From: Bdellovibrionales bacterium
Lineage (GTDB): Bacteria > Bdellovibrionota > Bdellovibrionia > Bdellovibrionales > UBA1609
Assembly: GCA_965203095.1 (NCBI GenBank)
Contig: OZ241877.1
Span: 1,184,001-1,248,000, forward strand
DNA: 64,000 nt
Direction: 5' to 3'
Program-made: the position numbers and the translations under genes
Notes under the pieces: model-generated
What the model was told of the DNA's origin: nothing
Database searches by the model: none
What the model saw: the letters and a program-made list of their open reading frames with translations, nothing else
Shown here: positions 35,319 to 50,867 of the stretch, one piece after another
How positions within the stretch are numbered: position 1 is the first letter of the stretch
Layout: each line of letters starts with the position of its first letter

Positions 35319-36818
35319 ATGGATGGATTCTTAAAAGATATTTCCCACTATGCACAGGAGATACCAGAGCAAGAGTTGACTGCTGGCTTTTCCCGTTTTT
35401 GTGAAAAGATGGCCACTGTTTTTGAGGTTAAGGACTTCCTTCTCAGTTTGCATGCTTATATACCAAAAAAATTTAAAATCAGTGAGATAGCTCTTTTTTA
35501 TGAATCTCCACAGTTGGGTTTAAGAAGAGCTTATGTCAACCGTTCTCGTTTTTATGAATCTGTGGCCAAAAAACCTTGGCCTAAAATTCATCAGAGTTGT
35601 CCTGGGTCTTTGGAGTTGAGTTTTTATTTAGCAGAAGAGTTGGGCCGGCCTTTTTCTAAAAGCCTTATGATCCCCTTATTTCATTCAAAAAGATCAGAGC
35701 CCGCCCTTCTTGTGGTGGAAACAGGCCAATGGAGAAAATCTTTTCAAGCCCTAATAGAGTTTTTTGAGCTGAGAAGACCTCTTATTCACATAGCTTTTAA
35801 CAGGGTTTTGATGAACGCTTATTTTGAAAGGGTCTCTTATTTATGGAGCCAGCTTTTTGAATGTTGGGGAGAGCCTTTAGCTGTTTTGCAAAACTTCAAG
35901 GCGGTCCGTTGGAATGATTCGTTTAAAGAGGATATAACTTTACCTTTTGTTTTCCCTCATCCTCAAAAAGAAAAAAGCTGGATAGAAAAAAAAAATAAGA
36001 TCTACCAAGCCCATTATTATCCTATCTCTAAAACGGAGACATCGATTCCCACAGGGATTTTATACTGTCAGGACATGACAAAGCATTTTCGTTTAAGGGA
36101 AGAGCTTTTTCAAAGTGAAAAAATGGCCAGCCTTTGCAAGTTAGGGAAAAACATGGCCCATCAGTTAAATAATCCTTTGACAGGTATTCAATCTATGGCT
36201 CAAATTTTATTAAAAAACTCTATAATGTCCAATTTTAAAGAGGAATGGGCTGAGGTGGAAAAAGCGACCCGGAGATCCCAAAAAATTATTGAGAGTCTTT
36301 TGTCTTTTTCTCAAACAGGAGGACAATCCACAGCTTGTGATTTGAATCAAGTTGTTGCAGATACTTTGCCTTTACTAAAAAACATGACACAAGGTTTGGA
36401 AATGAAGGTGGATTTTTGCCAGCAAGATATTAAAGTTCAAGGGGATTTTGCTTTGCTGAAACAAGTGGTTTATAACTTGGTTTTAAATAGTTGTCAGGCT
36501 TTAAAACAAGATAAGCAGAAAGCTCCCCCTCGTATTCAAATCAGTATTTATCAAAATTTAAAAGACCAAGCCTGTTTAAAAATTCAAGATAATGGACCAG
36601 GGATAGCCTCACAAAATTTAAAAAAGATTTTTCAGCCTTTTTGGACAAACAAAGACAAAGGCACAGGTTGGGGATTGGGTATTGTTCAGCGATTTGTTCA
36701 AAAGTTCCATGGGGAGATTTTAGTTTCCAGCAAGGAGAAAGAGTTGACCTGTTTTACAGTTCTTCTCCCTCTCATTAAGCCCCTGAGGACCAACCCCAGT
36801 GCCCCTTCAACTTATTGA
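35319..36818 (+). CDS. Sensor histidine kinase (soluble; no response regulator in the window)
   Basis: QSEKMASL..AHQLNNPL H-box, NLVLNS, DNGPGI, F.PFWT.K..GTGWGL. Confidence 0.9.
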   Translation: MDGFLKDISHYAQEIPEQELTAGFSRFCEKMATVFEVKDFLLSLHAYIPKKFKISEIALFYESPQLGLRRAYVNRSRFYESVAKKPWPKIHQSCPGSLELSFYLAEELGRPFSKSLMIPLFHSKRSEPALLVVETGQWRKSFQALIEFFELRRPLIHIAFNRVLMNAYFERVSYLWSQLFECWGEPLAVLQNFKAVRWNDSFKEDITLPFVFPHPQKEKSWIEKKNKIYQAHYYPISKTETSIPTGILYCQDMTKHFRLREELFQSEKMASLCKLGKNMAHQLNNPLTGIQSMAQILLKNSIMSNFKEEWAEVEKATRRSQKIIESLLSFSQTGGQSTACDLNQVVADTLPLLKNMTQGLEMKVDFCQQDIKVQGDFALLKQVVYNLVLNSCQALKQDKQKAPPRIQISIYQNLKDQACLKIQDNGPGIASQNLKKIFQPFWTNKDKGTGWGLGIVQRFVQKFHGEILVSSKEKELTCFTVLLPLIKPLRTNPSAPSTY

Positions 36819-36841: not shown

Positions 36842-37786
36842 TTAGGTTTCTGTTTTTTCTCCCAGCAGATCTTCCATCATGTCATTGAAGTCGTCGGTAG
36901 GGCATTCTTGTGTTTTTTCTTTATTTGCTGGCAGAAGGGCCAACAGTTCAGGCAGAGGGTTAAAGCAAGTAGCCAAATCCCCAGGCATCAAACCGTCTTT
37001 GTTTTTAGAGTGAATGTCAGCTCCTTTGTCCACTAAAACTTTCACTATTTCTATATCATTGAACCATGCGGCTAAGTGTAAGGGGGTATCGCCGTCTTTA
37101 TCTGTAGCCGAAATGTTGGCTCCAGCAGATAAAAGAATTTTCACAAAATCGGAGTTAGAGTTAAAAAATGTGGCTAAATGTAGAGGGGTCATGCCATTAT
37201 CATCTTTGATCTCAATATTGGCTCCGGCAGATAAAAGAATTTTCATAAAATCAGGATCAGGGTTCATCCTGGTGGCTAAATGCAAAGGGGTTCGTCCGTC
37301 ATCATTTTTGACATTAACTTTTGCTTTAAAAGATAGCAGGGTCCCTCCAATTTTTAAAGAAAATTTGATGACAGCCAAATGTAATGCGGTATCGCCATCT
37401 TCATCTTTAACCGAAATGTCGGCTCCTGAGTCCAACAGGGTGAGAATTACATCAAAAATTTCATTACGTAAAATAGCTATGTGCAGGGGAGTATTGCCAT
37501 TTTCATCTTTGGCCTCAATATCAGCCCCTTCTGCTATAAGTGCTGAAATCACTTTGGGGTCGGGGTTTGCTGTGGCGGCTAAATGCAAAGGGGTTTGTCC
37601 GTCATTATTTTTGGCCTTCACATCAGCTCCTTCATTTAATAAATATTTTATGAGTTGCAGTTCGCCAAAATCAGCCATTAAATGTAAAGGGGTATTGCCA
37701 TTTTCATCTCTAAAGTTGATATCTGTATTGGATCCTGCTGAGAGATGACAAAAAAATAAGAATATAAAACCGGATAAAAACTGCAT
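36842..37786 (-). CDS. Secreted ankyrin-repeat protein
   Basis: About seven G.TPLHLA repeats; likely start MQFLSG with signal peptide. Confidence 0.92.
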   Translation of the reverse strand: MQFLSGFIFLFFCHLSAGSNTDINFRDENGNTPLHLMADFGELQLIKYLLNEGADVKAKNNDGQTPLHLAATANPDPKVISALIAEGADIEAKDENGNTPLHIAILRNEIFDVILTLLDSGADISVKDEDGDTALHLAVIKFSLKIGGTLLSFKAKVNVKNDDGRTPLHLATRMNPDPDFMKILLSAGANIEIKDDNGMTPLHLATFFNSNSDFVKILLSAGANISATDKDGDTPLHLAAWFNDIEIVKVLVDKGADIHSKNKDGLMPGDLATCFNPLPELLALLPANKEKTQECPTDDFNDMMEDLLGEKTET

Positions 37787-37872
37787 AATAACTCTATAAT
37801 ACAAAAAAGCGGATATTGCAAATTTAAATTGGAAAAGTGAAAAAATTTCCGATTTAAAGCAAGACTCCCTTA

Positions 37873-38538
37873 TCAACAGGCCAGGGGATGATGAAGAGGG
37901 ATATTCGTCATTTCTGAAATTTTTTGGCTATAATAGCTTGTTTTTTTAGGAAAAGACAGGTTTTTAACAATGCTGAGAGATCGCAAAAAAGCAAACAGAT
38001 GAAAATCATCTAAGCTCAGGTCCCCATTAAAAAAATCCTGGGAGCTATCAAAAAAAGACTCCAAAATCTGTAGTTCTTTACTCATTTCCTGAATAAGTTC
38101 AGGACTTTTGCTGAGGCAGTCTTTAAAAGGCCCGATATAAGCCTCTTTCTTTTTTTGAAAGTAATTTCTTGCCTGAAGGCTTTTAAATTCTTCTAAAGGG
38201 GCTTGGACCCATCGTGGCATGGCTAGCTCATAGCAAAGTGTGCTGTTTTTGTTCATCCATTTTGAAAGCTTGTTGTTTGTTTTTTCAGAAAGCAAAGGAT
38301 GGCCATCTTCTTGATCTATATGGGATATTATATCTAAACTCTCTGGCATAAATTGGCCATCTTCCAGCTGTAATATAGGAACCATTTTGACCCCTATCAT
38401 GGATTGAGGGGTTTTTTCATCATCGTTAGGGAGGCATACCAACTCCAACCCCACTTTTTTAAAGCCAAAAATCATACGGGCCTTCACACAGTAAGGGCAA
38501 TGATCATAAATATAAAGCTTTTTTGTGGTTTGAGCCAT
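37873..38538 (-). CDS. grxB: Glutaredoxin 2
   Basis: KLYIYDHCPYCVKARMIFG.K, NDDE.TP..MIG.KMVPIL, MPESLDII. Confidence 0.93.
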   Translation of the reverse strand: MAQTTKKLYIYDHCPYCVKARMIFGFKKVGLELVCLPNDDEKTPQSMIGVKMVPILQLEDGQFMPESLDIISHIDQEDGHPLLSEKTNNKLSKWMNKNSTLCYELAMPRWVQAPLEEFKSLQARNYFQKKKEAYIGPFKDCLSKSPELIQEMSKELQILESFFDSSQDFFNGDLSLDDFHLFAFLRSLSIVKNLSFPKKTSYYSQKISEMTNIPLHHPLAC

Positions 38539-39025: not shown

Positions 39026-41689
39026 ATGAAGAAAAATATATTAAAAAATACCTTGAGAGAGTCTGTTAAAATGGGAATCCAGAAAACTTTATCTTCTTTA
39101 CCTACAAAACCAACGGGAATCTTGCCCCCAGGGATCTCCGAGTCGCAGTTTCAAGGCAATTTCACCCCCCCCCCCCCCCCCGAAAAACGCTGTAAATTCA
39201 ATAGTTTAAAGCATTTTAAACACAAAAAAGCTTTTCTTTTAAATAATAAAGGCTTTTCTATTACCGGTGTGGTGGTGGCCTCCACGATTGGGGTAATAGC
39301 CATGACGGGTATGGCTAAACACATGGCCTTGATAGCCCAACAGCAACAGAAAATAAATAAGGAAAGGGAACTGAATGCTTTTTGGGAACAGTTTGGGACT
39401 GAAACTAATTGTAAGGAAACAATAAAAGGCTGGCTCAATCAGAATACCCCTCCCGCAAATTCTAAAAAAGAAAAGTTAGCTTTGGGGACTGAAGGCAATG
39501 AGATAGAAATCAAAGTTTTAAAAAAGAAAAAAAACAATGTTGTCAGCAATTTTTTTGATGTAAGCACTGCAAATAATGTTTTTAGGCGACATGGTTTTAC
39601 TCCCCGCTTTTTTGTTTTGAGATGTAATCCTGCTGACAATGGCGGGAGTTGTGATTGCAAGGCCAGCGGGACGACTTATCCCTGCAAAAAGACTTGGATG
39701 CTTATCCCTGGGGTTCAAAGGGGGATGACTTTTATTAGAGGAAGGGTTTTGAATTTAGATATTGAGTGGTCGTCTGCTCCTAATAGCACTTATACTAATT
39801 TTGATTGCACTAAGATAGGAATATCCGGCGGGAAAAACCGCTGTTATAAGGCGGAGGCTACTGGGAGCAAAAGAACCCTTGCTGGTTGTGGTAGCACACA
39901 ATCACTTGGTGGCACAGGCACAACCGCTTTTGGTAATGATGTAGCAAGGTCGGCTACTATCACTGGGGCTGAAAATTATTTTTTTGGACACTGGGCGGGG
40001 CATAGTGCCAAAGTAAGCTCCACTGGCAATTCTTTTTTTGGGGATAGAGCGGGCTTAGGAGTAGAGATAAAAGCCAGAGGGACAAACAATGGGAATGCCA
40101 ATGTTTTTGTGGGGCAGAGAGCGGGGGACAATGCCACAATAGATGGTGGCACACAAAACCATTTTTTTGGATTTCAATCGGGATATGATGCCACAGTGAG
40201 AGGGCATAGAAATCACTTTTTAGGTCCTTATTCTGGGTATAAAGTAAATATGACGTCGGGGAATAATAATACTTTTGTCGGCTCTAATGCTGGTAGAGAA
40301 ACCACAATCTCAGCCGGTGGTAATCATTTTTTTGGGGACAATGCTGGGAAAAAAGCCACAGTGAGCGGAGGGCAGAACCATTTTATTGGCGATCATGCCG
40401 GCCAATCCGCCACAGTGGCCGGGGCGAGAAATACCTTCTTAGGGAACAGTGCGGGCTGGAATGCGGATGTAAGAAGCGGGGCCGATGGCAATGTCTTTAT
40501 TGGGCAGAGTGCGGGAAAAAAAGATCATGGGACTACCACAGGCGGTTATATATCAGGGGATTTGAATGTCTTTTTAGGGCATGCCGCCGGCCGGACTGCT
40601 AAGGTGTCCGGGCATTATAATACCTTCATTGGAGCCGGTGCCGGGGACGGGCAACCTATCTCTGGCAATGGCGGGACTTATATCAAAGGGAGTAAAATAG
40701 AAATCAAAGCCAATGATGTTGTAATCAAATCGGGGGCGGGCGGTGTTAAGTGTGCTTGGAATGAATATCTTAGAGGATTTGATGGCAATGGAAAACTTTG
40801 CGGAGTGCGGGCCACTATAGGAACTTGTCCCAGTGGGCAAGTGCTTAGTGGATTTAATGCCGATGGAACTTTAAATTGTGTGGCCACTGGAGGCACAGGC
40901 TGGAAACAAACTTGTCCGGTGGGGGATGTTCTCAGAGGGTTTAACTCTGCCGGGAATAAAGTCTGTGCCCTTCAAGATAAATGCAATGCAGGTTATTATT
41001 GGAGTGGGAGTCGCTGTATAACCCGCTGTGGTAGCAGTCAGCGATGGAATCATGAAAGGGCGACATGTGTTGCTTATACCCCTCCCCCCTCCCCCCAGCA
41101 GGGGTGTAGTCCCGGCTGTTCCGCGGATTCTATTTGTAGGAGCGGAACTTGTGTCCCCCTCTCCCCCGGAGGACATGGTTCCTCCAAAGTTTATAAAAAG
41201 AATATTCGTCCTTTTAATGATATGGAAAAGGCTTTGAAGGATATTTTAGAGACTCCCCTATTCACTTATTATTTTAAGGATAAAAACAATTTTCCTAAAA
41301 AGAAAAGAATGGGAGTGATAGCGGAGGACTTGCCAAAAAACTTACAGCTTAAAGGAAAGCCTATTGCTCCGGACTGGCCCTCTATCTATGGGACATTGTG
41401 GGCCGGGATAAAAGCCCTTCATTCCAAGATAGAAAGTTTTAAAAAAGATGTGCTCTCAAAATTCAAAACTCTCAATTCCACAATAGAGGCAAAATTTAAA
41501 GCCCTCAGCAAAACAGACGATCAGTTTAAAAAAGAGCTGGCAGGAACAAATAAAGAGTTGGCCAATACTAAACAGGAACTAAAATCAGCCAATGAAAAAA
41601 TAGACAGCCTCTCAAAAGAATTAAAAGAACTAAAGTCCAGCTTTGAGAAAAAAGGACTAAACAAAATAGACAATCAGCCGATAAGATAA
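39026..41689 (+). CDS. Fibre/adhesin-like protein: prepilin-like N-terminus, Gly-rich N-x-F-x-G repeats, Cys repeats, peptidase S74 chaperone, coiled coil
   Basis: NNKG|FSITGVVVASTIGVIAM; more than ten NxFxGxxAG repeats; three C..G.VL.GF...G...C repeats; SSKVYKKNI...MGVIAEDLP...LWAGIKAL. Confidence 0.8.
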   Translation: MKKNILKNTLRESVKMGIQKTLSSLPTKPTGILPPGISESQFQGNFTPPPPPEKRCKFNSLKHFKHKKAFLLNNKGFSITGVVVASTIGVIAMTGMAKHMALIAQQQQKINKERELNAFWEQFGTETNCKETIKGWLNQNTPPANSKKEKLALGTEGNEIEIKVLKKKKNNVVSNFFDVSTANNVFRRHGFTPRFFVLRCNPADNGGSCDCKASGTTYPCKKTWMLIPGVQRGMTFIRGRVLNLDIEWSSAPNSTYTNFDCTKIGISGGKNRCYKAEATGSKRTLAGCGSTQSLGGTGTTAFGNDVARSATITGAENYFFGHWAGHSAKVSSTGNSFFGDRAGLGVEIKARGTNNGNANVFVGQRAGDNATIDGGTQNHFFGFQSGYDATVRGHRNHFLGPYSGYKVNMTSGNNNTFVGSNAGRETTISAGGNHFFGDNAGKKATVSGGQNHFIGDHAGQSATVAGARNTFLGNSAGWNADVRSGADGNVFIGQSAGKKDHGTTTGGYISGDLNVFLGHAAGRTAKVSGHYNTFIGAGAGDGQPISGNGGTYIKGSKIEIKANDVVIKSGAGGVKCAWNEYLRGFDGNGKLCGVRATIGTCPSGQVLSGFNADGTLNCVATGGTGWKQTCPVGDVLRGFNSAGNKVCALQDKCNAGYYWSGSRCITRCGSSQRWNHERATCVAYTPPPSPQQGCSPGCSADSICRSGTCVPLSPGGHGSSKVYKKNIRPFNDMEKALKDILETPLFTYYFKDKNNFPKKKRMGVIAEDLPKNLQLKGKPIAPDWPSIYGTLWAGIKALHSKIESFKKDVLSKFKTLNSTIEAKFKALSKTDDQFKKELAGTNKELANTKQELKSANEKIDSLSKELKELKSSFEKKGLNKIDNQPIR
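39165..39181 (+). repeat. Homopolymeric C17 tract in the 5' coding region (candidate phase-variation switch)
   Basis: 17 consecutive C encoding TPPPPP in an AT-rich genome. Confidence 0.85.
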
Positions 41690-41714
41690 ACAGGAAACCT
41701 AAAACGGAGGGACT

Positions 41715-42269
41715 ATGAAACAAATTATTTTAATCCTTTTATGGATTGCAATCCCAGCTCAGAGCATTGCAATCCCCTTTGATAAAAAAAATTTAAAATA
41801 TAAAAAATCTTTAAAAAAAAGTGATCTCCACTATAAGAAATTAAGAGGTTCACTTCATGATAAGAAACAAACAAAAAAACCAGTTGATCCAACAAAACAA
41901 GCAGAGCTTATTAAGCAAATAAGGAAAGGCAAAAAAGATTTGGCGGGAGCAGACTTGAGAGGGGCAAACTTAGTGAGAACGAACTTACAGAATACAACCT
42001 TGAATTGGGCGGACTTTGAGGGGGCGATCTTAATAAGGGCGAACTTGAGAAGAGCATACATGGAACATGCAAACTTGAGAGGGGCAAAACTGCATGGGGC
42101 GGACTTTGAGGGGGCGATCTTGACAGGGGCGGACTTTAAGGGGGCGATCTTGACAGGGGCAAAATTTAAAGGAACAAACCTAATTTTTGCTTATATAGAC
42201 TCAAAATATCGTGACATGATTATGGCCAGCGGAGCATTGAACACAGACAGGATTAACTGGTGGGATTAA
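41715..42269 (+). CDS. Secreted pentapeptide-repeat protein (copy 1)
   Basis: Signal peptide; A(D/N)(L/F)xx repeats; GGAGG RBS. Confidence 0.9.
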   Translation: MKQIILILLWIAIPAQSIAIPFDKKNLKYKKSLKKSDLHYKKLRGSLHDKKQTKKPVDPTKQAELIKQIRKGKKDLAGADLRGANLVRTNLQNTTLNWADFEGAILIRANLRRAYMEHANLRGAKLHGADFEGAILTGADFKGAILTGAKFKGTNLIFAYIDSKYRDMIMASGALNTDRINWWD

Positions 42270-42350
42270 GCTCCGCCCTTTGTGTGAAAAATTTACAAAA
42301 GGCTTTAAAAGACTTTGTTTTCCCGGACAATCCTGCTATAAACAAACTCT

Positions 42351-42608
42351 ATGAAAATACTATTGAGCCTTATTCTTTTAATGAGCTTGCCGGCTTTTTC
42401 TGAAAACACGGAGCCAGTTGATCACACAAAACAAGCAGAATTGATTAACCAAATCAGACAAGGAAAAAAAAACTTGACAGGGGCGGACTTGAGAGGGGCT
42501 ACTTGGATAGGAGCGAACTTAGCTGGAACTTATATAAACTCAAAATATCGTGACATGATTATGGCCAGCGGAGCATTGAACACAGACAAGATTAAATGGG
42601 TGGATTAA
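42351..42608 (+). CDS. Short pentapeptide-repeat paralogue (copy 1)
   Basis: Signal peptide; shares PVD.TKQAELI.QIR.GKK and YI.SKYRDMIMASGALNTD with the upstream gene. Confidence 0.75.
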   Translation: MKILLSLILLMSLPAFSENTEPVDHTKQAELINQIRQGKKNLTGADLRGATWIGANLAGTYINSKYRDMIMASGALNTDKIKWVD

Positions 42609-42676
42609 GCTTTTGCCCTTTGTGTGAAAAATTTACAAAATTCTATTTTTTTGGAGGATTATTATATAAGGCAAAT

Positions 42677-42838
42677 ATGAAAAATTTATTATTTATCTTT
42701 TCCTTTTATTCTTTTACCGCTGGAGCAGGTTTTTGGGACTCTTTGAATTTTTGGTCCGGTCCTGATTGGTATGCAGTGATTACAAACTTACATTTTGGAC
42801 AACCTTTTAAAATATATGCTGATAATGTAGGGAATTGA
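42677..42838 (+). CDS. Small putative secreted protein or gene fragment (copy 1)
   Basis: MKNLLFIFSFYSFTAGA signal-like start; 53 aa. Confidence 0.3.
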   Translation: MKNLLFIFSFYSFTAGAGFWDSLNFWSGPDWYAVITNLHFGQPFKIYADNVGN

Positions 42839-43032
42839 CTTTCATTATACTTGTGGTATAATAAACTCGCTATTTTACTGATAAAATTAGTCTAAAATCT
42901 GAGCTTTTAGGCAAAGAGAATAAATTCTGTCAGCAAAATACTGAAACATGGACAACCCCTTCCTTTTTTCCTATATTGAGTAGACAGTGAGTGTGCAGGC
43001 TTTTATAAAATATAGGGGTAGTAAAAAACCGG

Positions 43033-43689
43033 ATGAATGCCAAAAAAACAGTTTTAATAGTCGCAGGGCCTTCTGGGGGACATATTTACCCCGCTTTGGC
43101 TGTGGCGGAAAAGTTGAAAGATCAATTTCAAGTTCATTTGGCCCATTCCGGTTCTCTTTTAGGAAGAAGTCTTTTAAATTCTACAAAATTCCCCATCCAT
43201 GAAATTTCCATTGGTGGTTTAGCCCAAGGGCAGAGTTTTTTTAAAAAAATAAAAACAGTTTTTAACCTGCCACTGGCTTTTATTCATTCCCTAAGACTTA
43301 TCCAAAAAATAAAAACTGGTCTTGTTTTTGGAACTGGAGGATCTGTCACCGGTCCCCTTTTATTAACTGCTGTTTTAATGTTTCGTAAAACTGCTTTATG
43401 GGAAGGGAATATTTCTGCAGGATTGGCCAACCGCTGGCTAGCTCCCTTTGTCTCAAAAGTGTTTACAGTTTTTCCTGAAGTGGAGGCTTTGCCTTTAAAA
43501 AAACAACAACTCTGTGGTTATCCTTTAAGGGATCCAAAACCGGGTTTTCAAAAAAAACCACCAACTGAGGGGCAAAAGGATTTTTCCCGACTTCCGCATT
43601 TTGTGATCAGGAATCCAGTATTATCAAGGGTTTGCGGGGAGGCTTGGGTCACTACATTCAAGACTTTAGTTTGTGATATTAGGACATAA
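43033..43689 (+). pseudogene. murG: 3'-truncated murG copy reading into the IS end
   Basis: Identical to 48316.. up to ...EGQKDF (43585), then IS-derived SRLPHF... Confidence 0.92.
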
Positions 43690-45361
43690 ATTTAATAGTT
43701 CGTGGGAAGGTTTTGTTAAAGGCTTTGTAGATATTCTTTTGTGTTTTGTTGATTGTAGAAGGTAGGAAGAATTTCTTTCCTGTGGATGTGTCCTCTATAT
43801 AACTGATTTGGACAAGACTTAATTCTTGTTTAATGACTTCAAAACTAAGGTTTATATTTTTAGATTTCAAAACATGCCTCACAAAAACCGTCAGACCATA
43901 AGCTATAAAACATATTAACACATGAGCCTTTATCCTTCTCGGTGTCCAATGATAGATAGGTCTCATCTTCAAATCATGTTTGTTCATACGAAAAGCAGAT
44001 TCTATTTGCCAAAGATTTTTGTATTTTTCCAATATGTTATGGGCCGTCTCTTTTTTGTTGTTTACAGCTACAGCACTAAATCCGTCCCATAAACGCTCCG
44101 CTTGTATCTTGTCTTCATTTAAAACAGCCCAACCCTTCTGTTTTAACTCCAAATACTTCTTAAGTCCGGTGTTTTTAACCAAATCCTTCACACGAACTCG
44201 ACCACCTTTCATCTTTTCTTTTATCTTGGCCAAAAGCTTCTCCCTATCCCTTCTGTCTTTATCTGCTCTTTCCCGATCATAACGGACAATGAGACGAAAA
44301 CCCTCCCACTCATATTCCCCCGTCCAGCTCCGAACCTTTCTAAAATCCCCTCTTTTAGAAAAAGCAGGAGCTTCCGACAACACCCTATCCTTCAAAGACT
44401 TCTTCATTGACTTCAGCCGGGCCCCAGCTATAAACTGAACCTTCCTTTTATCCATCTCAAAAAGATTTTTCTTGGAAAACATCCCACGATCAGCAACTAA
44501 AAACACATCCCGAATATCATAACTCTTTGATATATTATCTATCGTCTGGAGCAAAGTATTGCCCTCAAAAGTATTACCAGAAAAAAGCTCATAACCTATA
44601 GGCAAACCCCCTTTAGTCGTCATCAAAGACAAAACAACCTGTGTCTCTTTGATCTTATTGTCCTTGCTAAAACCACAACTCCTCAAATTATCCTCGATAA
44701 AACTCTCAAAATACAATGTCGTCACATCAAAAAACACAACATCAATACGCTCTTTAAACAAACTCAATGTCCTCTCGGTTAGCTTGCCTTTTAAAACCTC
44801 ACTATTCTTATAAACCTTGTCCATCATCCGATAAACACGATCCAAAGGTATGGACTGAACACCAGCAGACCTTCTGCTTATGTCCAAAACACTACCCCGC
44901 TTACTCATCGGACTTTTTAAACGATGCAAAACCATTTCCTTCAATAGTTGGCTGGCCTCTCTATGCTTATATCCCTCATTAAAACAAGACGATAAACCCA
45001 GGTCATCGTAAACCTTGCCAAATATGTCTGAAATCCCCACAACTTGACGACTCTCCTCTTTCAGACTTGGTGCATGAACCATATCCCCAGGATAAAAATC
45101 CCTCTTCTTCTCTCTCGTAGAGTCCCCCTTGGAATCCCTCTTAGAATCCTCCTCAAAAAGCGAGAACTGATCTTTTCCTTTGAGGTCCTGAATGACTTTT
45201 CTGCCGATCTTGTAAAATAAAGCAATTTTCTCTTTATCGTTTTGATGGCAATGTCCTACACAGCCAATAGTCTCTTGTCTGACTTTTTTGCCTTCTCTAC
45301 GGCTTCTGACCACACGGATGGAAACATGGCCATTGGCTTTTTTAACTTCACGAATAAACAT
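43679..45361 (-). CDS. IS1634-family DDE transposase
   Basis: MFIREVKK, FFDVTTLYFES, GFSKD, GNTFEG, VADRGM, LWQIESAFR..KHDLKMRPIYHW..RIKAHVLICFIAY. Confidence 0.95.
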   Translation of the reverse strand: MFIREVKKANGHVSIRVVRSRREGKKVRQETIGCVGHCHQNDKEKIALFYKIGRKVIQDLKGKDQFSLFEEDSKRDSKGDSTREKKRDFYPGDMVHAPSLKEESRQVVGISDIFGKVYDDLGLSSCFNEGYKHREASQLLKEMVLHRLKSPMSKRGSVLDISRRSAGVQSIPLDRVYRMMDKVYKNSEVLKGKLTERTLSLFKERIDVVFFDVTTLYFESFIEDNLRSCGFSKDNKIKETQVVLSLMTTKGGLPIGYELFSGNTFEGNTLLQTIDNISKSYDIRDVFLVADRGMFSKKNLFEMDKRKVQFIAGARLKSMKKSLKDRVLSEAPAFSKRGDFRKVRSWTGEYEWEGFRLIVRYDRERADKDRRDREKLLAKIKEKMKGGRVRVKDLVKNTGLKKYLELKQKGWAVLNEDKIQAERLWDGFSAVAVNNKKETAHNILEKYKNLWQIESAFRMNKHDLKMRPIYHWTPRRIKAHVLICFIAYGLTVFVRHVLKSKNINLSFEVIKQELSLVQISYIEDTSTGKKFFLPSTINKTQKNIYKAFNKTFPRTIKFMS

Positions 45362-45367
45362 ACTGGC

Positions 45368-45396
45368 AGAATAAGAGAAGACAGAAGGCTTGTCAA
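45368..45396 (-). promoter_or_regulatory. Sigma70-type transposase promoter, probably leaderless
   Basis: Minus strand TTGACA-17 bp-TATTCT, then 6 nt to the ATG at 45361; no Shine-Dalgarno. Confidence 0.65.
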
Positions 45397-45504
45397 GTAG
45401 ATAAATTAAAAATATTGCTTTATTTTTATCAAGGGCCACTACACCCCAACACAACAATAAAAAGCCCATAAACTGGGCCTTTTAAACCCTTACAACTCTA
45501 CAAA

Positions 45505-46972
45505 ATGCGGAAGTCGGGAGTAAATATGACGTCGGGGAATAATAATACTTTTGTCGGCTCTAATGCTGGTAGAGAAACCACAATCTCAGCCGGTGGTAAT
45601 CATTTTTTTGGGGACAATGCTGGGAAAAAAGCCACAGTGAGCGGAGGGCAGAACCATTTTATTGGCGATCATGCCGGCCAATCCGCCACAGTGGCCGGGG
45701 CGAGAAATACCTTCTTAGGGAACAGTGCGGGCTGGAATGCGGATGTAAGAAGCGGGGCCGATGGCAATGTCTTTATTGGGCAGAGTGCGGGAAAAAAAGA
45801 TCATGGGACTACCACAGGCGGTTATATATCAGGGGATTTGAATGTCTTTTTAGGGCATGCCGCCGGCCGGACTGCTAAGGTGTCCGGGCATTATAATACC
45901 TTCATTGGAGCCGGTGCCGGGGACGGGCAACCTATCTCTGGCAATGGCGGGACTTATATCAAAGGGAGTAAAATAGAAATCAAAGCCAATGATGTTGTAA
46001 TCAAATCGGGGGCGGGCGGTGTTAAGTGTGCTTGGAATGAATATCTTAGAGGATTTGATGGCAATGGAAAACTTTGCGGAGTGCGGGCCACTATAGGAAC
46101 TTGTCCCAGTGGGCAAGTGCTTAGTGGATTTAATGCCGATGGAACTTTAAATTGTGTGGCCACTGGAGGCACAGGCTGGAAACAAACTTGTCCGGTGGGG
46201 GATGTTCTCAGAGGGTTTAACTCTGCCGGGAATAAAGTCTGTGCCCTTCAAGATAAATGCAATGCAGGTTATTATTGGAGTGGGAGTCGCTGTATAACCC
46301 GCTGTGGTAGCAGTCAGCGATGGAATCATGAAAGGGCGACATGTGTTGCTTATACCCCTCCCCCCTCCCCCCTCCCCCCAGCAGGGGTGTAGTCCCGGCT
46401 GTTCCGCGGATTCTATTTGTAGGAGCGGAACTTGTGTCCCCCTCTCCCCCGGAGGACATGGTTCCTCCAAAGTTTATAAAAAGAATATTCGTCCTTTTAA
46501 TGATATGGAAAAGGCTTTGAAGGATATTTTAGAGACTCCCCTATTCACTTATTATTTTAAGGATAAAAACAATTTTCCTAAAAAGAAAAGAATGGGAGTG
46601 ATAGCGGAGGACTTGCCAAAAAACTTACAGCTTAAAGGAAAGCCTATTGCTCCGGACTGGCCCTCTATCTATGGGACATTGTGGGCCGGGATAAAAGCCC
46701 TTCATTCCAAGATAGAAAGTTTTAAAAAAGATGTGCTCTCAAAATTCAAAACTCTCAATTCCACAATAGAGGCAAAATTTAAAGCCCTCAGCAAAACAGA
46801 CGATCAGTTTAAAAAAGAGCTGGCAGGAACAAATAAAGAGTTGGCCAATACTAAACAGGAACTAAAATCAGCCAATGAAAAAATAGACAGCCTCTCAAAA
46901 GAATTAAAAGAACTAAAGTCCAGCTTTGAGAAAAAAGGACTAAACAAAATAGACAATCAGCCGATAAGATAA
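45505..46972 (+). pseudogene. 5'-truncated, frameshifted second copy of the fibre gene
   Basis: Starts at the IS end; an extra TCCCCCC unit at about 46373-46379 splits it into ORFs 45505-46392 and 46304-46972. Confidence 0.88.
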
Positions 46973-46997
46973 ACAGGAAACCTAAAACGGAGGGACT

Positions 46998-47552
46998 ATG
47001 AAACAAATTATTTTAATCCTTTTATGGATTGCAATCCCAGCTCAGAGCATTGCAATCCCCTTTGATAAAAAAAATTTAAAATATAAAAAATCTTTAAAAA
47101 AAAGTGATCTCCACTATAAGAAATTAAGAGGTTCACTTCATGATAAGAAACAAACAAAAAAACCAGTTGATCCAACAAAACAAGCAGAGCTTATTAAGCA
47201 AATAAGGAAAGGCAAAAAAGATTTGGCGGGAGCAGACTTGAGAGGGGCAAACTTAGTGAGAACGAACTTACAGAATACAACCTTGAATTGGGCGGACTTT
47301 GAGGGGGCGATCTTAATAAGGGCGAACTTGAGAAGAGCATACATGGAACATGCAAACTTGAGAGGGGCAAAACTGCATGGGGCGGACTTTGAGGGGGCGA
47401 TCTTGACAGGGGCGGACTTTAAGGGGGCGATCTTGACAGGGGCAAAATTTAAAGGAACAAACCTAATTTTTGCTTATATAGACTCAAAATATCGTGACAT
47501 GATTATGGCCAGCGGAGCATTGAACACAGACAGGATTAACTGGTGGGATTAA
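46998..47552 (+). CDS. Secreted pentapeptide-repeat protein (copy 2)
   Basis: Identical translation to 41715-42269. Confidence 0.9.
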   Translation: MKQIILILLWIAIPAQSIAIPFDKKNLKYKKSLKKSDLHYKKLRGSLHDKKQTKKPVDPTKQAELIKQIRKGKKDLAGADLRGANLVRTNLQNTTLNWADFEGAILIRANLRRAYMEHANLRGAKLHGADFEGAILTGADFKGAILTGAKFKGTNLIFAYIDSKYRDMIMASGALNTDRINWWD

Positions 47553-47633
47553 GCTCCGCCCTTTGTGTGAAAAATTTACAAAAGGCTTTAAAAGACTTTG
47601 TTTTCCCGGACAATCCTGCTATAAACAAACTCT

Positions 47634-47891
47634 ATGAAAATACTATTGAGCCTTATTCTTTTAATGAGCTTGCCGGCTTTTTCTGAAAACACGGAGCCAG
47701 TTGATCACACAAAACAAGCAGAATTGATTAACCAAATCAGACAAGGAAAAAAAAACTTGACAGGGGCGGACTTGAGAGGGGCTACTTGGATAGGAGCGAA
47801 CTTAGCTGGAACTTATATAAACTCAAAATATCGTGACATGATTATGGCCAGCGGAGCATTGAACACAGACAAGATTAAATGGGTGGATTAA
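47634..47891 (+). CDS. Short pentapeptide-repeat paralogue (copy 2)
   Basis: Identical translation to 42351-42608. Confidence 0.75.
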   Translation: MKILLSLILLMSLPAFSENTEPVDHTKQAELINQIRQGKKNLTGADLRGATWIGANLAGTYINSKYRDMIMASGALNTDKIKWVD

Positions 47892-48315
47892 GCTTTTGCC
47901 CTTTGTGTGAAAAATTTACAAAATTCTATTTTTTTGGAGGATTATTATATAAGGCAAATATGAAAAATTTATTATTTATCTTTTCCTTTTATTCTTTTAC
48001 CGCTGGAGCAGGTTTTTGGGACTCTTTGAATTTTTGGTCCGGTCCTGATTGGTATGCAGTGATTACAAACTTACATTTTGGACAACCTTTTAAAATATAT
48101 GCTGATAATGTAGGGAATTGACTTTCATTATACTTGTGGTATAATAAACTCGCTATTTTACTGATAAAATTAGTCTAAAATCTGAGCTTTTAGGCAAAGA
48201 GAATAAATTCTGTCAGCAAAATACTGAAACATGGACAACCCCTTCCTTTTTTCCTATATTGAGTAGACAGTGAGTGTGCAGGCTTTTATAAAATATAGGG
48301 GTAGTAAAAAACCGG

Positions 48316-49401
48316 ATGAATGCCAAAAAAACAGTTTTAATAGTCGCAGGGCCTTCTGGGGGACATATTTACCCCGCTTTGGCTGTGGCGGAAAAGTTGA
48401 AAGATCAATTTCAAGTTCATTTGGCCCATTCCGGTTCTCTTTTAGGAAGAAGTCTTTTAAATTCTACAAAATTCCCCATCCATGAAATTTCCATTGGTGG
48501 TTTAGCCCAAGGGCAGAGTTTTTTTAAAAAAATAAAAACAGTTTTTAACCTGCCACTGGCTTTTATTCATTCCCTAAGACTTATCCAAAAAATAAAAACT
48601 GGTCTTGTTTTTGGAACTGGAGGATCTGTCACCGGTCCCCTTTTATTAACTGCTGTTTTAATGTTTCGTAAAACTGCTTTATGGGAAGGGAATATTTCTG
48701 CAGGATTGGCCAACCGCTGGCTAGCTCCCTTTGTCTCAAAAGTGTTTACAGTTTTTCCTGAAGTGGAGGCTTTGCCTTTAAAAAAACAACAACTCTGTGG
48801 TTATCCTTTAAGGGATCCAAAACCGGGTTTTCAAAAAAAACCACCAACTGAGGGGCAAAAGGATTTTTTTAAGCTTTTGATCTTGGGGGGGAGCCAAGGT
48901 TCTCAGTTCATCAATCAGGTTGTCAGCCAAGCTGTGGAGGAGGAGAGCTGGAGAGAGGGTATTTTTATCTATCATCAAACAGGCAAAATGTCTTTCCCTA
49001 AAATCAACAAGAAATACAAGAGTTTGAATAGGGTTCAGGCTTTTCCCTTCAGCTCAAATATAGATAAGTATTACAAAAACAGCGATCTGATTATTTCTCG
49101 TGCCGGCTCAGGTGCTATTTGGGAGGTGGCGGAACAAGGCAAAGCCCTTGTCCTCATCCCTTTAACTGCCTCTGCCGGAGGGCATCAGCTCAAAAATGCC
49201 CTTTGGCTCTCTTCAAGAAATTGTGTTGAAATGATCAAAGAGCCGGATTTTAATGTCAAGAGCTTGAAGGATATAGTCATTCAGCTGAAACAAAATGAGA
49301 AGAGAAGAAAGCAGTTGGCTCAATTTTTAAAAACCAGGAGCCAAGGAGACGGTGCTCAGTATATTGCTAATCAGTTGGCCGGACTGGCCTCTACTGCTTG
49401 A
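48316..49401 (+). CDS. murG: Undecaprenyl-PP-MurNAc-pentapeptide GlcNAc transferase
   Basis: GPSGGHIYPALA, GTGG, GYPLR, LGGSQG, ISRAGSG, HQLKNA. Confidence 0.95.
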   Translation: MNAKKTVLIVAGPSGGHIYPALAVAEKLKDQFQVHLAHSGSLLGRSLLNSTKFPIHEISIGGLAQGQSFFKKIKTVFNLPLAFIHSLRLIQKIKTGLVFGTGGSVTGPLLLTAVLMFRKTALWEGNISAGLANRWLAPFVSKVFTVFPEVEALPLKKQQLCGYPLRDPKPGFQKKPPTEGQKDFFKLLILGGSQGSQFINQVVSQAVEEESWREGIFIYHQTGKMSFPKINKKYKSLNRVQAFPFSSNIDKYYKNSDLIISRAGSGAIWEVAEQGKALVLIPLTASAGGHQLKNALWLSSRNCVEMIKEPDFNVKSLKDIVIQLKQNEKRRKQLAQFLKTRSQGDGAQYIANQLAGLASTA

Positions 49402-49508: not shown

Positions 49509-50867
49509 ATGCTGTATTTACAAAATAAAAATTTGCACTTTATAGGTATTGGCGGGATAGGCATGTGCGGTTTGGCCGAATTGCTCCATAATTCTGGCAG
49601 TTGTGTGACAGGAAGTGATTTGCAAGAAGGCCCAGAAGTTGAGCGTCTTAAAGCTTTAGGTATTCCCATTTTTATTGGTCATGCTCCTTCTCATATAAGT
49701 AAAAAAACAGATATTGTGGTTTATTCCAGTGCTGTCCGGAAAGACAATATCGAAGCTATAAAAGCTCAACAGATGGGGCTACCTTTAATCCATCGTGCAG
49801 AGGCATTGGCTGAAATGATGAGGCTTAAACAAGGGATCGTTGTGGCCGGATCTCATGGGAAAACCACCACCACTGCCTTTTTAGCCCATGTGTTTTTTGG
49901 AGCAGGGCAAAGCCCCACAGTGGTTGCGGGAGGGCGGTTGGATCTGTTTCAATCCACTGCCCATTTAGGAAAAAGCCAGTGGTTTATTGCGGAGTCGGAT
50001 GAAAGCGACGGGAGTTTTCATCACCTGTTTCCGGAATTGGTTGTGCTGACTAACATTGATGACGACCATTTAGATTTTTATGGCAGTCTTTTGGAGATGA
50101 AAAAAAGCTTTTCCAAGTTTTTGAAAAAAATCCCCTTTTACGGTTCTGTAATTGCCTGTGGGGATTGCCCTAATGTCAGAGAAGTTTTAGACAGTGGATT
50201 TACTGGTCGGTTATGGCTTTATGGTTTGTCTAAGAAAAATGACTTTATCTTAAAAAAAGAGGAGAAGGCTTATAGTATCCGCCACAAAGGGGAAAAGTGG
50301 GGAGAGTTGGATATTCCCCTCAAGGGGGAATATAATGCTTTAAACGCTTTAGGAGCTTCAGTTTGCAGTTGGGTGGCCGGTTTAAATAAAAAGGAAATTT
50401 TTAAAGGACTAAAAAGTTTTAAAGGGGTCAAAAGGCGACGCGAGTTTAAGGGGGAGCAAAATGGTTGTCTTTTTTTTGATGATTATGCCCATCATCCTAC
50501 AGAAATAAAAGCGGTTCTCCTTAGCCTTAAAGAGGAGTTTAAGGATCGTCGTATTGTGGTTTTGTTTCAACCCCATCGCTACAGCCGATTTAAAAATTGT
50601 TGGGATAGGTTTTTACAGTGTTTTCGCCTTGCGGATCGGCTTTTTGTTTTGCCGGTGTATCCTGCGGGGGAGAAGGCTTTAGCAGGCTTTGACTCTGTTC
50701 ATTTTGTCCAAAAAATATCCCAGCCTGAAGCTTGTTTTTTAACTGAAAAGGCTTGCTCCTCTTTGGCTTTAGAGCTGAGAGACAAAGATGTTTTCATTAC
50801 CCTGGGGGCAGGTTCAGTTTATCGTTATGGAGAGGAATTGTTGGCTCAGCTTAAAAAATCTTACTGA
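49509..50867 (+). CDS. murC: UDP-N-acetylmuramate--L-alanine ligase
   Basis: HFIGIGGIGM, AGSHGKTTTT, ESDESDGSF, DDYAHHPTEI, FQPHRYSR. Confidence 0.96.
   Translation: MLYLQNKNLHFIGIGGIGMCGLAELLHNSGSCVTGSDLQEGPEVERLKALGIPIFIGHAPSHISKKTDIVVYSSAVRKDNIEAIKAQQMGLPLIHRAEALAEMMRLKQGIVVAGSHGKTTTTAFLAHVFFGAGQSPTVVAGGRLDLFQSTAHLGKSQWFIAESDESDGSFHHLFPELVVLTNIDDDHLDFYGSLLEMKKSFSKFLKKIPFYGSVIACGDCPNVREVLDSGFTGRLWLYGLSKKNDFILKKEEKAYSIRHKGEKWGELDIPLKGEYNALNALGASVCSWVAGLNKKEIFKGLKSFKGVKRRREFKGEQNGCLFFDDYAHHPTEIKAVLLSLKEEFKDRRIVVLFQPHRYSRFKNCWDRFLQCFRLADRLFVLPVYPAGEKALAGFDSVHFVQKISQPEACFLTEKACSSLALELRDKDVFITLGAGSVYRYGEELLAQLKKSY

What the first reader, a model, noticed from the sequence alone, without database searches (positions are those of the whole stretch)
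40243..48868. IS1634 element flanked exactly by a 3.3-kb direct repeat: giant target-site duplication that spares the essential gene
Seen: the left inverted repeat starts right after 43585 (inside murG). The right inverted repeat is followed immediately by sequence identical to 40243 (inside the fibre gene). The layout is X-IS-X with X = 3343 bp, and no separate short TSD is visible. The fibre gene is intact in copy 1, murG is intact in copy 2, and the pentapeptide genes are doubled. Known: IS1634 (Mycoplasma) and the related IS1549 (Mycobacterium) make long, variable direct repeats, as I recall tens to a few hundred bp. Inference: either this transposase makes staggered attacks kilobases apart, or two insertions on sister chromosomes recombined. 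Either way it gives non-destructive, revertible insertion and gene amplification.
Basis: partly seen in the sequence, partly recalled or inferred. Interest (0 to 1): 0.9.

Follow-up and report, generated by a model that had tools for sequence, protein, structure and literature searches.

The report
IS1634-type element with kilobase target duplication
A jumping gene of the IS1634 family sits between two copies of 3.3 kb of host DNA, and since every other copy also has long flanking repeats, the element probably made the duplication when it inserted, leaving the essential murG gene intact.

Summary
A 1,933-bp IS1634-family insertion sequence (window 43586-45518) lies exactly between two direct copies of a 3.3-kb segment (40243-43585 and 45519-48868). 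The copies are identical except for one extra 7-nt unit of a C-rich tract in copy 2.

- All 4 of 4 full copies of this IS in the genome are flanked exactly by direct repeats of 84, 1161, 1370 and 3343 bp.
- 23 of 34 full-length relatives (36-50% identical transposases, mostly in Bdellovibrionales MAGs) carry exact flanking repeats of 38-964 bp.
- No copy has the family's usual 5-6-bp duplication.
- Both repeat boundaries show the same symmetric T-rich target preference, as expected if each IS end chose its own target site.

Long variable repeats (8-514 bp) are already known for IS1634 and IS1549, and this scan has met shorter cases before. So this is a new member of a known kind that stretches the range about 6.5-fold, and the mechanism is still unknown.

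Read-level proof of the 3.3-kb structure was not obtained: only fragmented contigs could be laid, and their depths are ambiguous.

Interest is moderate.

The parts
40243..43585 (.). Direct repeat X, copy 1 (3343 bp). It holds the 3' 1447 bp of the fibre-like gene, the pentapeptide genes and the first 553 bp of murG.
   Evidence: identical to copy 2 except for a 7-bp indel. It ends exactly at the left end of the IS.
43586..45518 (-). IS1634-family insertion sequence, 1933 bp.
   Evidence: one of four full copies in the genome, 100% identical to the copy at C1:1350952-1352884 and 96% identical to the two others.
43586..43604 (.). Left terminal inverted repeat, CCCGACTTCCGCATTTTGT.
   Evidence: (I3). 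The same CCYGACTT terminus occurs in relatives.
45500..45518 (.). Right terminal inverted repeat, a perfect complement of the left one.
43679..45469 (-). Transposase gene, 596 aa.
   Evidence: Pfam DDE_Tnp_1, 64.2 bits. NCBIfam NF033559 IS1634 family transposase, 345.6 bits, cut-off 100, residues 63-585.
45519..48868 (.). Direct repeat X, copy 2 (3350 bp).
46355..46361 (+). The only difference between the copies: one extra 7-nt unit in a C-rich (C6T) tract. Its exact placement within the tract is arbitrary.
   Evidence: It splits the fibre fragment of copy 2 into two ORFs (45505-46392 and 46304-46972).
39026..41689 (+). Intact fibre-like gene (887 aa), which crosses the left boundary of copy 1.
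   Evidence: Peptidase_S74 (endosialidase chaperone) domain at residues 719-771.
41715..42269 (+). Pentapeptide-repeat gene (184 aa), duplicated at 46998-47552.
   Evidence: PF00805, 107 bits.
42351..42608 (+). Short pentapeptide-repeat ORF (85 aa), duplicated at 47634-47891.
   Evidence: PF00805, 21.4 bits.
43033..43585 (+). Truncated murG (N-terminal GT28 domain only). The ORF runs on into the IS as far as 43689.
   Evidence: Glyco_transf_28 N-terminal domain only.
48316..49401 (+). Intact murG (361 aa). It keeps 2.8 kb of its native upstream DNA inside copy 2 and is followed by a Mur ligase gene (49509-50867).
   Evidence: both GT28 domains. TIGR01133 murG model at 215 bits, which is below its 250-bit cut-off. 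Mur ligase downstream; the murG part of X matches only these two places in the genome.

Best explanation
The 3.3-kb repeat is a target-site duplication made in the single event that inserted this IS1634-family element. This is a lineage (found here mainly in Bdellovibrionales genomes) whose transposase does not hold its two strand-transfer reactions a fixed 5-6 bp apart. Each IS 3' end joins next to its own A-rich/T-rich target site, and the two sites lie tens of bp to kilobases apart on opposite strands. DNA synthesis primed from the two free target 3' ends then copies the stretch between them, probably by strand displacement, giving X-IS-X. Shown here: the layout, its recurrence at every copy, and the symmetric target preference. 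Inferred: the order of chemical steps, and how the intervening duplex is separated. Consequences: genes that cross a boundary stay intact on one side (fibre gene left, murG right), inner genes are doubled, and RecA recombination between the copies could remove the IS precisely. At this site only a long duplication could have survived, because a short one would have destroyed the only murG.
For: (1) All 4 of 4 full IS copies in the genome are flanked exactly by direct repeats of 3343, 84, 1370 and 1161 bp, with 0, 0, 4 and 0 mismatches.
(2) Among 34 relatives' loci of at least 15 kb with a near-full transposase match, 23 carry a repeat of 38-964 bp directly abutting termini of the type CCYGACTT. 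A more distant element, L051, carries one of 147 bp. 20 of these 24 repeats are 100% identical.
(3) No copy has a short duplication: 0 of 9 repeat-less copies with defined ends shows a repeat of 4 bp or more, even allowing a 3-bp shift at each end.
(4) Over 56 half-sites from 28 repeats, the base next to the IS end is T in 40, C in 12 and G in 0, with T-rich positions -4, -3 and -1. The pattern is the same at both boundaries after reverse-complementing one of them (P about 6e-10 against 31% T). So both boundaries look like chosen transposase target sites.
(5) No other IS copy flanks X-IS-X; the nearest is 123 kb away.
(6) The family is known for this behaviour: IS1549 and IS1634 make repeats of 8-514 bp (PMC2266710, passages).
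(7) Repeat lengths form one continuous spread (median 275 bp) with 3343 as its upper tail.
Against: No transposition was observed, so everything rests on end products.

The 3.3-kb structure could not be confirmed with raw reads. Only fragmented short contigs of public runs could be laid. In the best-matching run, the contig specific to X has word depth 22.6. That compares with 16.9 for the contig crossing the left boundary and 47-56 for contigs specific to the IS subtype that has two copies in the assembly. This is not a clean two-fold signal, and several strains are mixed in that run.

11 of 34 relatives lack adjacent repeats.

3343 bp is 2.4 times the next longest case.

A normal transpososome binds one bent target, so attacks kilobases apart need an unproven architecture.
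Confidence: 0.68

Rival explanations
1. Two separate insertions of the IS, one at 40243 and one at 43585 in the same orientation on sister chromosomes, recombined through the IS and gave X-IS-X. The reciprocal product would be a deletion.
For: The product would be indistinguishable at this one locus, because any short duplications would be hidden inside X (reasoning from the layout). recA is present. IS-IS recombination does happen in relatives: flanks of the repeat-less copies L032, L038 and L040 lie beside other IS copies elsewhere in the same chromosome.
Against: It would have had to happen independently at 4 of 4 copies here and at 24 loci in relatives. The required intermediates, single insertions with short duplications, were never seen: 0 of 9 repeat-less copies with defined ends. 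Insertions 84 bp or 38 bp apart followed by an exchange are far-fetched.
Confidence: 0.08
2. The repeat arises in the insertion event, but not by a long stagger on one duplex. The two IS ends join the two sister duplexes behind a replication fork at different positions, and repair of the broken arms leaves X-IS-X.
For: It needs no melting of 3.3 kb of duplex. It is compatible with every sequence observation. A comparable route is recalled (from memory, not from a call) for maize Ac/Ds sister-chromatid transposition, which makes tandem direct duplications.
Against: Nothing in the sequence demands it. In this genome all four copies lie on the same strand on both sides of the weak GC-skew minimum near 1.21 Mb, so no orientation bias relative to replication is visible. 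That rests on four copies and a noisy skew.
Confidence: 0.17
3. The 3.3-kb duplication is an assembly artefact, or a mixture of alleles in an uncultivated population that was assembled into one path.
For: The genome is a metagenome-type assembly at about 90% completeness. Contig depths do not show a clear doubling of X, and strain variants are present. The 7-nt difference lies in a poly-C tract where long-read consensus errors occur.
Against: In the best-matching run, the contig from the left flank ends 30 letters into X, and the contig covering the 3' end of X (42611-43585) ends exactly at 43585. That is the branch pattern expected if X has two left and two right neighbours. A second sample also has a contig ending at 43585. 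The same layout recurs at 27 other copies, most with repeats far too short to confuse an assembler, including a 117-bp case in a scaffold-level MAG record (L001).
Confidence: 0.07

Closest known systems
IS1634 (Mycoplasma mycoides SC) and IS1549 (Mycobacterium smegmatis), the members of the IS1634 family reported to make long, variable direct repeats
   Same: Same transposase family. Similar size: 1933 bp here against the family's 1500-2000 bp. Ends begin with C. Flanking direct repeats differ in length from copy to copy and no fixed short duplication is present.
   Different: The published range is 8-514 bp (PMC2266710, passages; the two original papers are not held). Here the range is 84-3343 bp in one genome and 38-964 bp in relatives. 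The host is a Bdellovibrionota-like uncultivated bacterium. The symmetric T-rich preference at both boundaries was measured here; I did not find it in the passages I read.
Ordinary IS1634-family elements, for example ISGka5 of Geobacillus kaustophilus
   Same: IS1634-family DDE transposase with terminal inverted repeats.
   Different: These make 5-6-bp AT-rich duplications (PMC2266710; ISGka5 6 bp, PMC8024623, passages). No copy of the present clade shows one.
IS1634-linked large tandem repeats of M. mycoides PG1 (13-kb pair, 8-kb triplet)
   Same: Kilobase-scale direct repeats with an IS1634 copy between them. The 13-kb repeats are 1824 bp apart, only one gene copy is usually intact, and the duplication can be lost in culture (PMC1798306, passages).
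   Different: Those repeats are also flanked by IS copies on the outside, and the authors attribute them to the flanking IS elements. Here no IS flanks X-IS-X, and the repeat length grades continuously down to 38 bp.
Tandem direct duplications made by alternative (sister-chromatid or reversed-ends) transposition of maize Ac/Ds (recalled from memory, not checked in a call)
   Same: A cut-and-paste transposase produces kilobase direct duplications flanking the element in one event.
   Different: A eukaryotic hAT element, using ends of two elements or of sister copies, and an unrelated transposase.

Membership tests
IS1634 family of insertion sequences | Transposase matches the family profile above its curated cut-off | tested here: met
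   NF033559 transpos_IS1634, 345.6 bits (cut-off 100), residues 63-585 on model positions 1-480 of 483. The next family, IS701, scores 36 bits, below its cut-off.
IS1634 family of insertion sequences | DDE-type catalytic domain of the IS4-related kind | tested here: met
   PF01609 DDE_Tnp_1, 64.2 bits, residues 243-525. The individual D, D and E residues were not mapped.
IS1634 family of insertion sequences | Element length 1500-2000 bp, with terminal inverted repeats that start with C (family consensus C-----YT) | tested here: met
   1933 bp with ends CCCGACTT. The criterion comes from the table in PMC2266710.
IS1634 family of insertion sequences | Incomplete YREK motif and a long N3-C1 spacer in the transposase | not tested
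   Described in PMC2266710. I made no residue-level alignment.
IS1634 family of insertion sequences | Typical 5-6-bp AT-rich target duplication | tested here: not met
   0 of 4 copies here and 0 of 9 repeat-less relatives. This is the usual state rather than a defining one, since IS1634 itself lacks it. The AT-rich character is kept at each boundary.
IS1634/IS1549-type long variable direct repeats | Flanking direct repeats that abut the IS ends exactly and differ in length between copies of one element | tested here: met
   84, 1161, 1370 and 3343 bp for one IS in one genome. 122-696 bp among the copies in one relative's chromosome.
IS-flanked tandem duplication by unequal exchange (IS-X-IS-X-IS) | Further IS copies at the outer ends of the duplicated segments | tested here: not met
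   the only other copies lie at C1:175259, 971122 and 1350952, and none is next to 40243 or 48868.

The most novel reading that the evidence does not exclude
In this IS1634 lineage, the transposase has lost the fixed spacing between its two strand transfers while keeping the local target preference of each end. The two ends would capture two separate sites of a looped target. Gene-sized duplications would then be a regular, built-in product of transposition. The element could enter essential genes without killing the host, double the genes in between, and be removed cleanly by recombination. The spread of repeat lengths (38 bp to 3.3 kb, median 275 bp) would reflect how often two sites on one DNA meet, trimmed by the faster loss of long repeats.
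Probability: 0.5. Interest if true: 0.7.

Novelty: new member of a known kind. Interest (0 to 1): 0.5.

Why it matters
How IS1634 and IS1549 make long, variable duplications has been open since 1998-99. The 2008 family review states that no mechanistic model had been proposed (PMC2266710).

This genome and its relatives offer a clean natural series of 28 insertions with repeats from 38 bp to 3.3 kb, nearly all still 100% identical, together with a measurable symmetric target motif. That gives a concrete transposase and defined ends to test in an ordinary host.

If the duplications are made in the insertion step, transposition by this lineage is also a direct source of gene duplication. Here it doubled pentapeptide-repeat genes at two of the four sites. 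It would also let an IS sit inside an essential gene region such as murG without damage.

A practical point follows. Annotation pipelines that look for short target duplications will misread these elements, and short-read assemblies will collapse them.

Tried and rejected
- **Read support.** Only Logan contigs were available and they are short in this paralog-rich region. No contig spans the structure, and depths are not interpretable as copy number because strains are mixed.
- **Empty site in relatives.** Among 30 related genomes, only the murG part of X matches (64-69% identity), so no uninserted allele could be read. The IS itself was not found in the 9 same-genus genomes searched at E <= 1e-30.
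- **JGI metagenome contigs.** Searching the right boundary of copy 2 and the left IS end gave 0 matches each.
- **Very long repeats at repeat-less copies.** For L032, a whole-genome search with the right flank found the partner 800 kb away beside another IS copy, not within reach of a duplication. For L012, L013, L019, L035 and L050 no partner was found within the 10-kb flanks, and I did not search their whole genomes.
- **L007 and L008.** No convincing terminal inverted repeats were found. I count them as undefined.
- **Helical phasing of repeat lengths.** No signal at periods of 9.5-11.55 bp: best resultant 0.35-0.40, and 49-83% of jittered controls reached it.
- **Orientation relative to replication.** The GC skew is weak and there are only four copies, so nothing can be concluded.
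- **Original papers.** The IS1634 and IS1549 papers (PMC93511, PMC106989) are not held. Their numbers are taken second-hand from PMC2266710.
- **Prior reports of kilobase duplications.** The searches 'IS1634' + 'direct repeats' (15 papers), 'IS1549' / 'long direct repeats' and 'IS1634' + 'target site duplication' (5 papers) turned up no report of kilobase target duplications for this family. I judged this from the listed titles and abstracts and from passages of five of the papers. The library lacks most subscription journals.
Full report
**What is there.** The window is G000:C1:1184001-1248000 of a 1.78-Mb chromosome plus a 17-kb second contig, at 38% G+C.

At window 43586-45518 lies a 1,933-bp element with perfect 19-bp terminal inverted repeats. 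It carries one 596-aa gene on the minus strand. That gene matches the NCBIfam IS1634-family transposase model at 345.6 bits (cut-off 100) and Pfam DDE_Tnp_1.

The 3,343 bp to its left (40243-43585) recur directly to its right (45519-48868). The alignment has no mismatch and a single 7-bp insertion in the right copy, which is one extra unit of a C6T tract. The sequence just outside the two copies is unrelated, so the repeat abuts both IS ends exactly and there is no additional short duplication.

The left boundary falls inside an 887-aa fibre-like gene with an endosialidase-chaperone domain. The right boundary falls at about codon 184 of murG. As a result:
- The fibre gene is whole only on the left.
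- murG is whole only on the right (48316-49401, followed by a Mur ligase gene).
- Two pentapeptide-repeat ORFs are doubled.
- The murG part of the repeat occurs nowhere else in the genome.

**The decisive test in the same genome.** A BLAST search of the IS against the whole genome finds four full copies and two fragments of about 100-130 bp of the left end.

| Copy | Flanking direct repeat | Differences between the two repeat copies |
|---|---|---|
| C1:1227586 (this one) | 3,343 bp | 0 mismatches, one 7-bp indel |
| C1:1350952 (100% identical IS) | 84 bp | 0 mismatches |
| C1:175259 (96% identical IS) | 1,370 bp | 4 mismatches |
| C1:971122 (96% identical IS) | 1,161 bp | 0 mismatches |

Each full copy is flanked exactly by its repeat. 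The two 96% copies are identical to each other. The 1,370-bp repeat doubles a 319-aa pentapeptide-repeat gene. No IS copy lies at the outer ends of any of these structures.

The result is the opposite.

**Relatives.** A scan of one genome per species for relatives of the transposase returned 60 loci. Those with usable flanks come mostly from Bdellovibrionales and Bacteriovoracaceae MAGs, several of them single-chromosome assemblies. This agrees with earlier notes of this scan that the genome is a Bdellovibrio-like uncultivated bacterium.

I examined the 34 loci that are at least 15 kb long and have a near-full transposase match (36-50% identity).
- 23 have a direct repeat of 38-964 bp that abuts an element of about 1.87-1.98 kb with termini of the type CCYGACTT.
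- A more distant element (L051, 31% identity) has a 147-bp repeat.
- 20 of these 24 repeats are 100% identical.
- Two apparent hits at transposase fragments (L052, L055) lacked such termini and were dropped.
- Nine full copies with recognisable ends have no adjacent repeat, and none of them has a short duplication of 4 bp or more, even allowing three bases of slack at each end.
- Two (L007, L008) have no recognisable ends.

For three of the nine repeat-less copies (L032, L038, L040), the missing partner flank lies beside a different IS copy elsewhere in the same chromosome. In a fourth (L021), a further repeated element of about 2 kb lies 54 bp from the right IS end. Secondary IS-IS recombination or nesting is therefore a sufficient explanation for at least these four. 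Insertions that deleted rather than duplicated the interval would look the same.

**A shared target signature at both boundaries.** I took the 28 repeats as 56 half-sites, reading each towards the IS end. The base touching the IS is T in 40, C in 12, A in 4 and G in 0. Positions -4 and -3 are also T-rich, with 37 and 32 T of 56. Against 31% T, the excess at -1 has P of about 6e-10.

The pattern is the same at the left and right boundaries once one is reverse-complemented. In chemical terms, each IS 3' end is joined just 5' of an A-run on the strand it attacks. This matches the AT-rich 5-6-bp duplications described for ordinary family members (PMC2266710). It is what one expects if each boundary is a transposase-chosen target site, and it is not expected for breakpoints of a replication-slippage duplication.

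**Most likely mechanism.** The recurrence at every copy, the absence of short duplications and the symmetric target preference together point to one event. The two ends attack opposite strands at two sites that are not held 5-6 bp apart. The free target 3' ends then prime synthesis across the interval, necessarily with strand displacement or helicase action when the interval is long. The product is X-IS-X.

These steps are inferred; only the products are seen. Whether the two sites lie on one looped duplex or on the two sister duplexes behind a fork cannot be told from sequence.

The lengths form one continuous spread: 38, 84, 84, 86, 103 ... 964, 1161, 1370, 3343, with a median of 275 bp. I found no helical phasing. 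With only four copies and a weak GC skew, I found no sign of an orientation bias relative to replication.

Two biases should shape what survives. Long repeats are lost faster by homologous recombination, and recA is present. At a site inside the only murG gene, only a duplication long enough to carry the 5' part of the gene and its upstream DNA would leave a viable cell. This may be why the longest case sits here.

**Rivals.**
- *Two independent same-orientation insertions followed by exchange.* This gives the same product at one locus, but it would have to recur at all 28 loci, including repeats of 38 and 84 bp. Its intermediates were never seen.
- *Classical IS-flanked tandem duplication.* This is excluded by the lack of outer IS copies.
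- *Misassembly or an allele mixture.* This cannot be excluded for the 3.3-kb case. Only contigs of public runs could be laid on 39500-45518, and they are short there.
  - In the best-matching run, the contig coming from the left flank stops 30 letters into X. The contig covering the 3' end of X (42611-43585) stops exactly at 43585. This is the branch pattern expected if X has two neighbours on each side.
  - A contig of a second sample also stops at 43585.
  - Word depths are 22.6 for the X contig, 16.9 for the left-boundary contig and 47-56 for contigs specific to the IS subtype that has two assembled copies. They do not give a clean two-fold signal, and variant letters show several strains in the run.
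  - I therefore treat the read evidence as inconclusive. I rest the case on the recurrence of the layout, mostly at repeat lengths that cannot mislead an assembler.

**Comparison with what is known.** The 2008 revision of the IS4 group gives 5-6-bp AT-rich duplications as the rule for the IS1634 family. It singles out IS1549 and IS1634 as making long variable repeats of 8-514 bp, and notes that no mechanistic model had been proposed (PMC2266710, passages read). An active Geobacillus member makes 6 bp (PMC8024623, passages).

In M. mycoides PG1, 13-kb repeats lie 1,824 bp apart with an IS1634 copy between them and further copies outside. An 8-kb triplet also harbours IS1634. The 13-kb duplication is lost on passage. 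The authors attribute these repeats to the flanking IS elements (PMC1798306, passages). Kilobase repeats around IS1634 are therefore not new as an observation, though there they were not read as target duplications.

Earlier follow-ups in this scan met IS1634-family elements with repeats of 61 bp and an inferred 932 bp, and related miniature elements, on other genomes. They judged them normal for the family.

My three literature searches found no report of kilobase target duplications for this family. I judged this from the listed titles and abstracts and from passages of five of the papers. The two founding papers and most subscription journals are not in the library.

**Verdict.** The feature is real as assembled, and the giant-target-duplication reading is the best supported one, at about 0.68 (0.85 if the replication-fork variant of a single-event origin is included).

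It belongs to a known kind, the long variable direct repeats of IS1634/IS1549. Three things are added here:
- A clade in which this is the rule: 27 of 38 full copies, and none with a short duplication.
- An upper length about 6.5 times the published maximum.
- A symmetric target motif.

It does not reveal the mechanism, but it supplies a good system to find it. Interest is moderate, at 0.5.

Noticed in passing
window 41079-41099 and 46355-46382: A C-rich heptanucleotide tract (C4T, C6T, C6) inside the fibre-like gene has one more C6T unit in repeat copy 2, which shifts the frame. It could be slipped-strand (phase-variation-like) change since the duplication, or a consensus error at poly-C. A run of two or more full C6T units occurs only here in the chromosome.
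   Followed up: partly
G000:C1 about 111-113 kb, 187-191 kb, 472-479 kb, 962-981 kb, and window 39026-42838: The fibre-like gene followed by pentapeptide-repeat genes is a multi-copy cassette, with paralogs at 66-95% identity. One of the other three IS copies (971 kb) lies inside one of these clusters and another (175 kb) lies about 10 kb from one. Two of the four target duplications double pentapeptide genes.
   Followed up: partly
G000:C1:1039302-1039431 (minus strand) and C1:1359826-1359934: Two solo left-end fragments of the IS (about 105-130 bp, 93% identical) with no transposase gene. They may be remnants or miniature derivatives. Their flanks were printed but not analysed.
   Followed up: partly
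window 43604-45314 (IS): Contigs identical to this IS subtype over 510 and 1,431 bp occur in sponge and marine metagenome runs of two other studies. Those runs show no cover of the murG part of X at 95% likeness. The same IS may therefore reside in other strains or hosts (runs X1 and X2). Absence of cover in contigs proves little.
   Followed up: no
L032:11833-12432 and about 100 places in its genome (handle G031): The flank of one relative's IS contains a dispersed repeat of about 150-300 bp, present in roughly a hundred copies at 80-97% identity on both strands. It is probably a miniature mobile element of that genome.
   Followed up: no
window 36842-37876 (minus strand) and 35319-36818: Upstream of the locus lie a 344-aa ankyrin-repeat protein gene and a histidine kinase gene. 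Ankyrin and pentapeptide repeats, together with sponge-metagenome hits, fit a host-associated lifestyle.
   Followed up: no
G000:C1 about 1.21 Mb (inside the window): The cumulative GC skew of the chromosome has its minimum near 1.21 Mb and its maximum near 0. The skew is weak and the arms are unequal. The replication origin may lie in or near this window.
   Followed up: no
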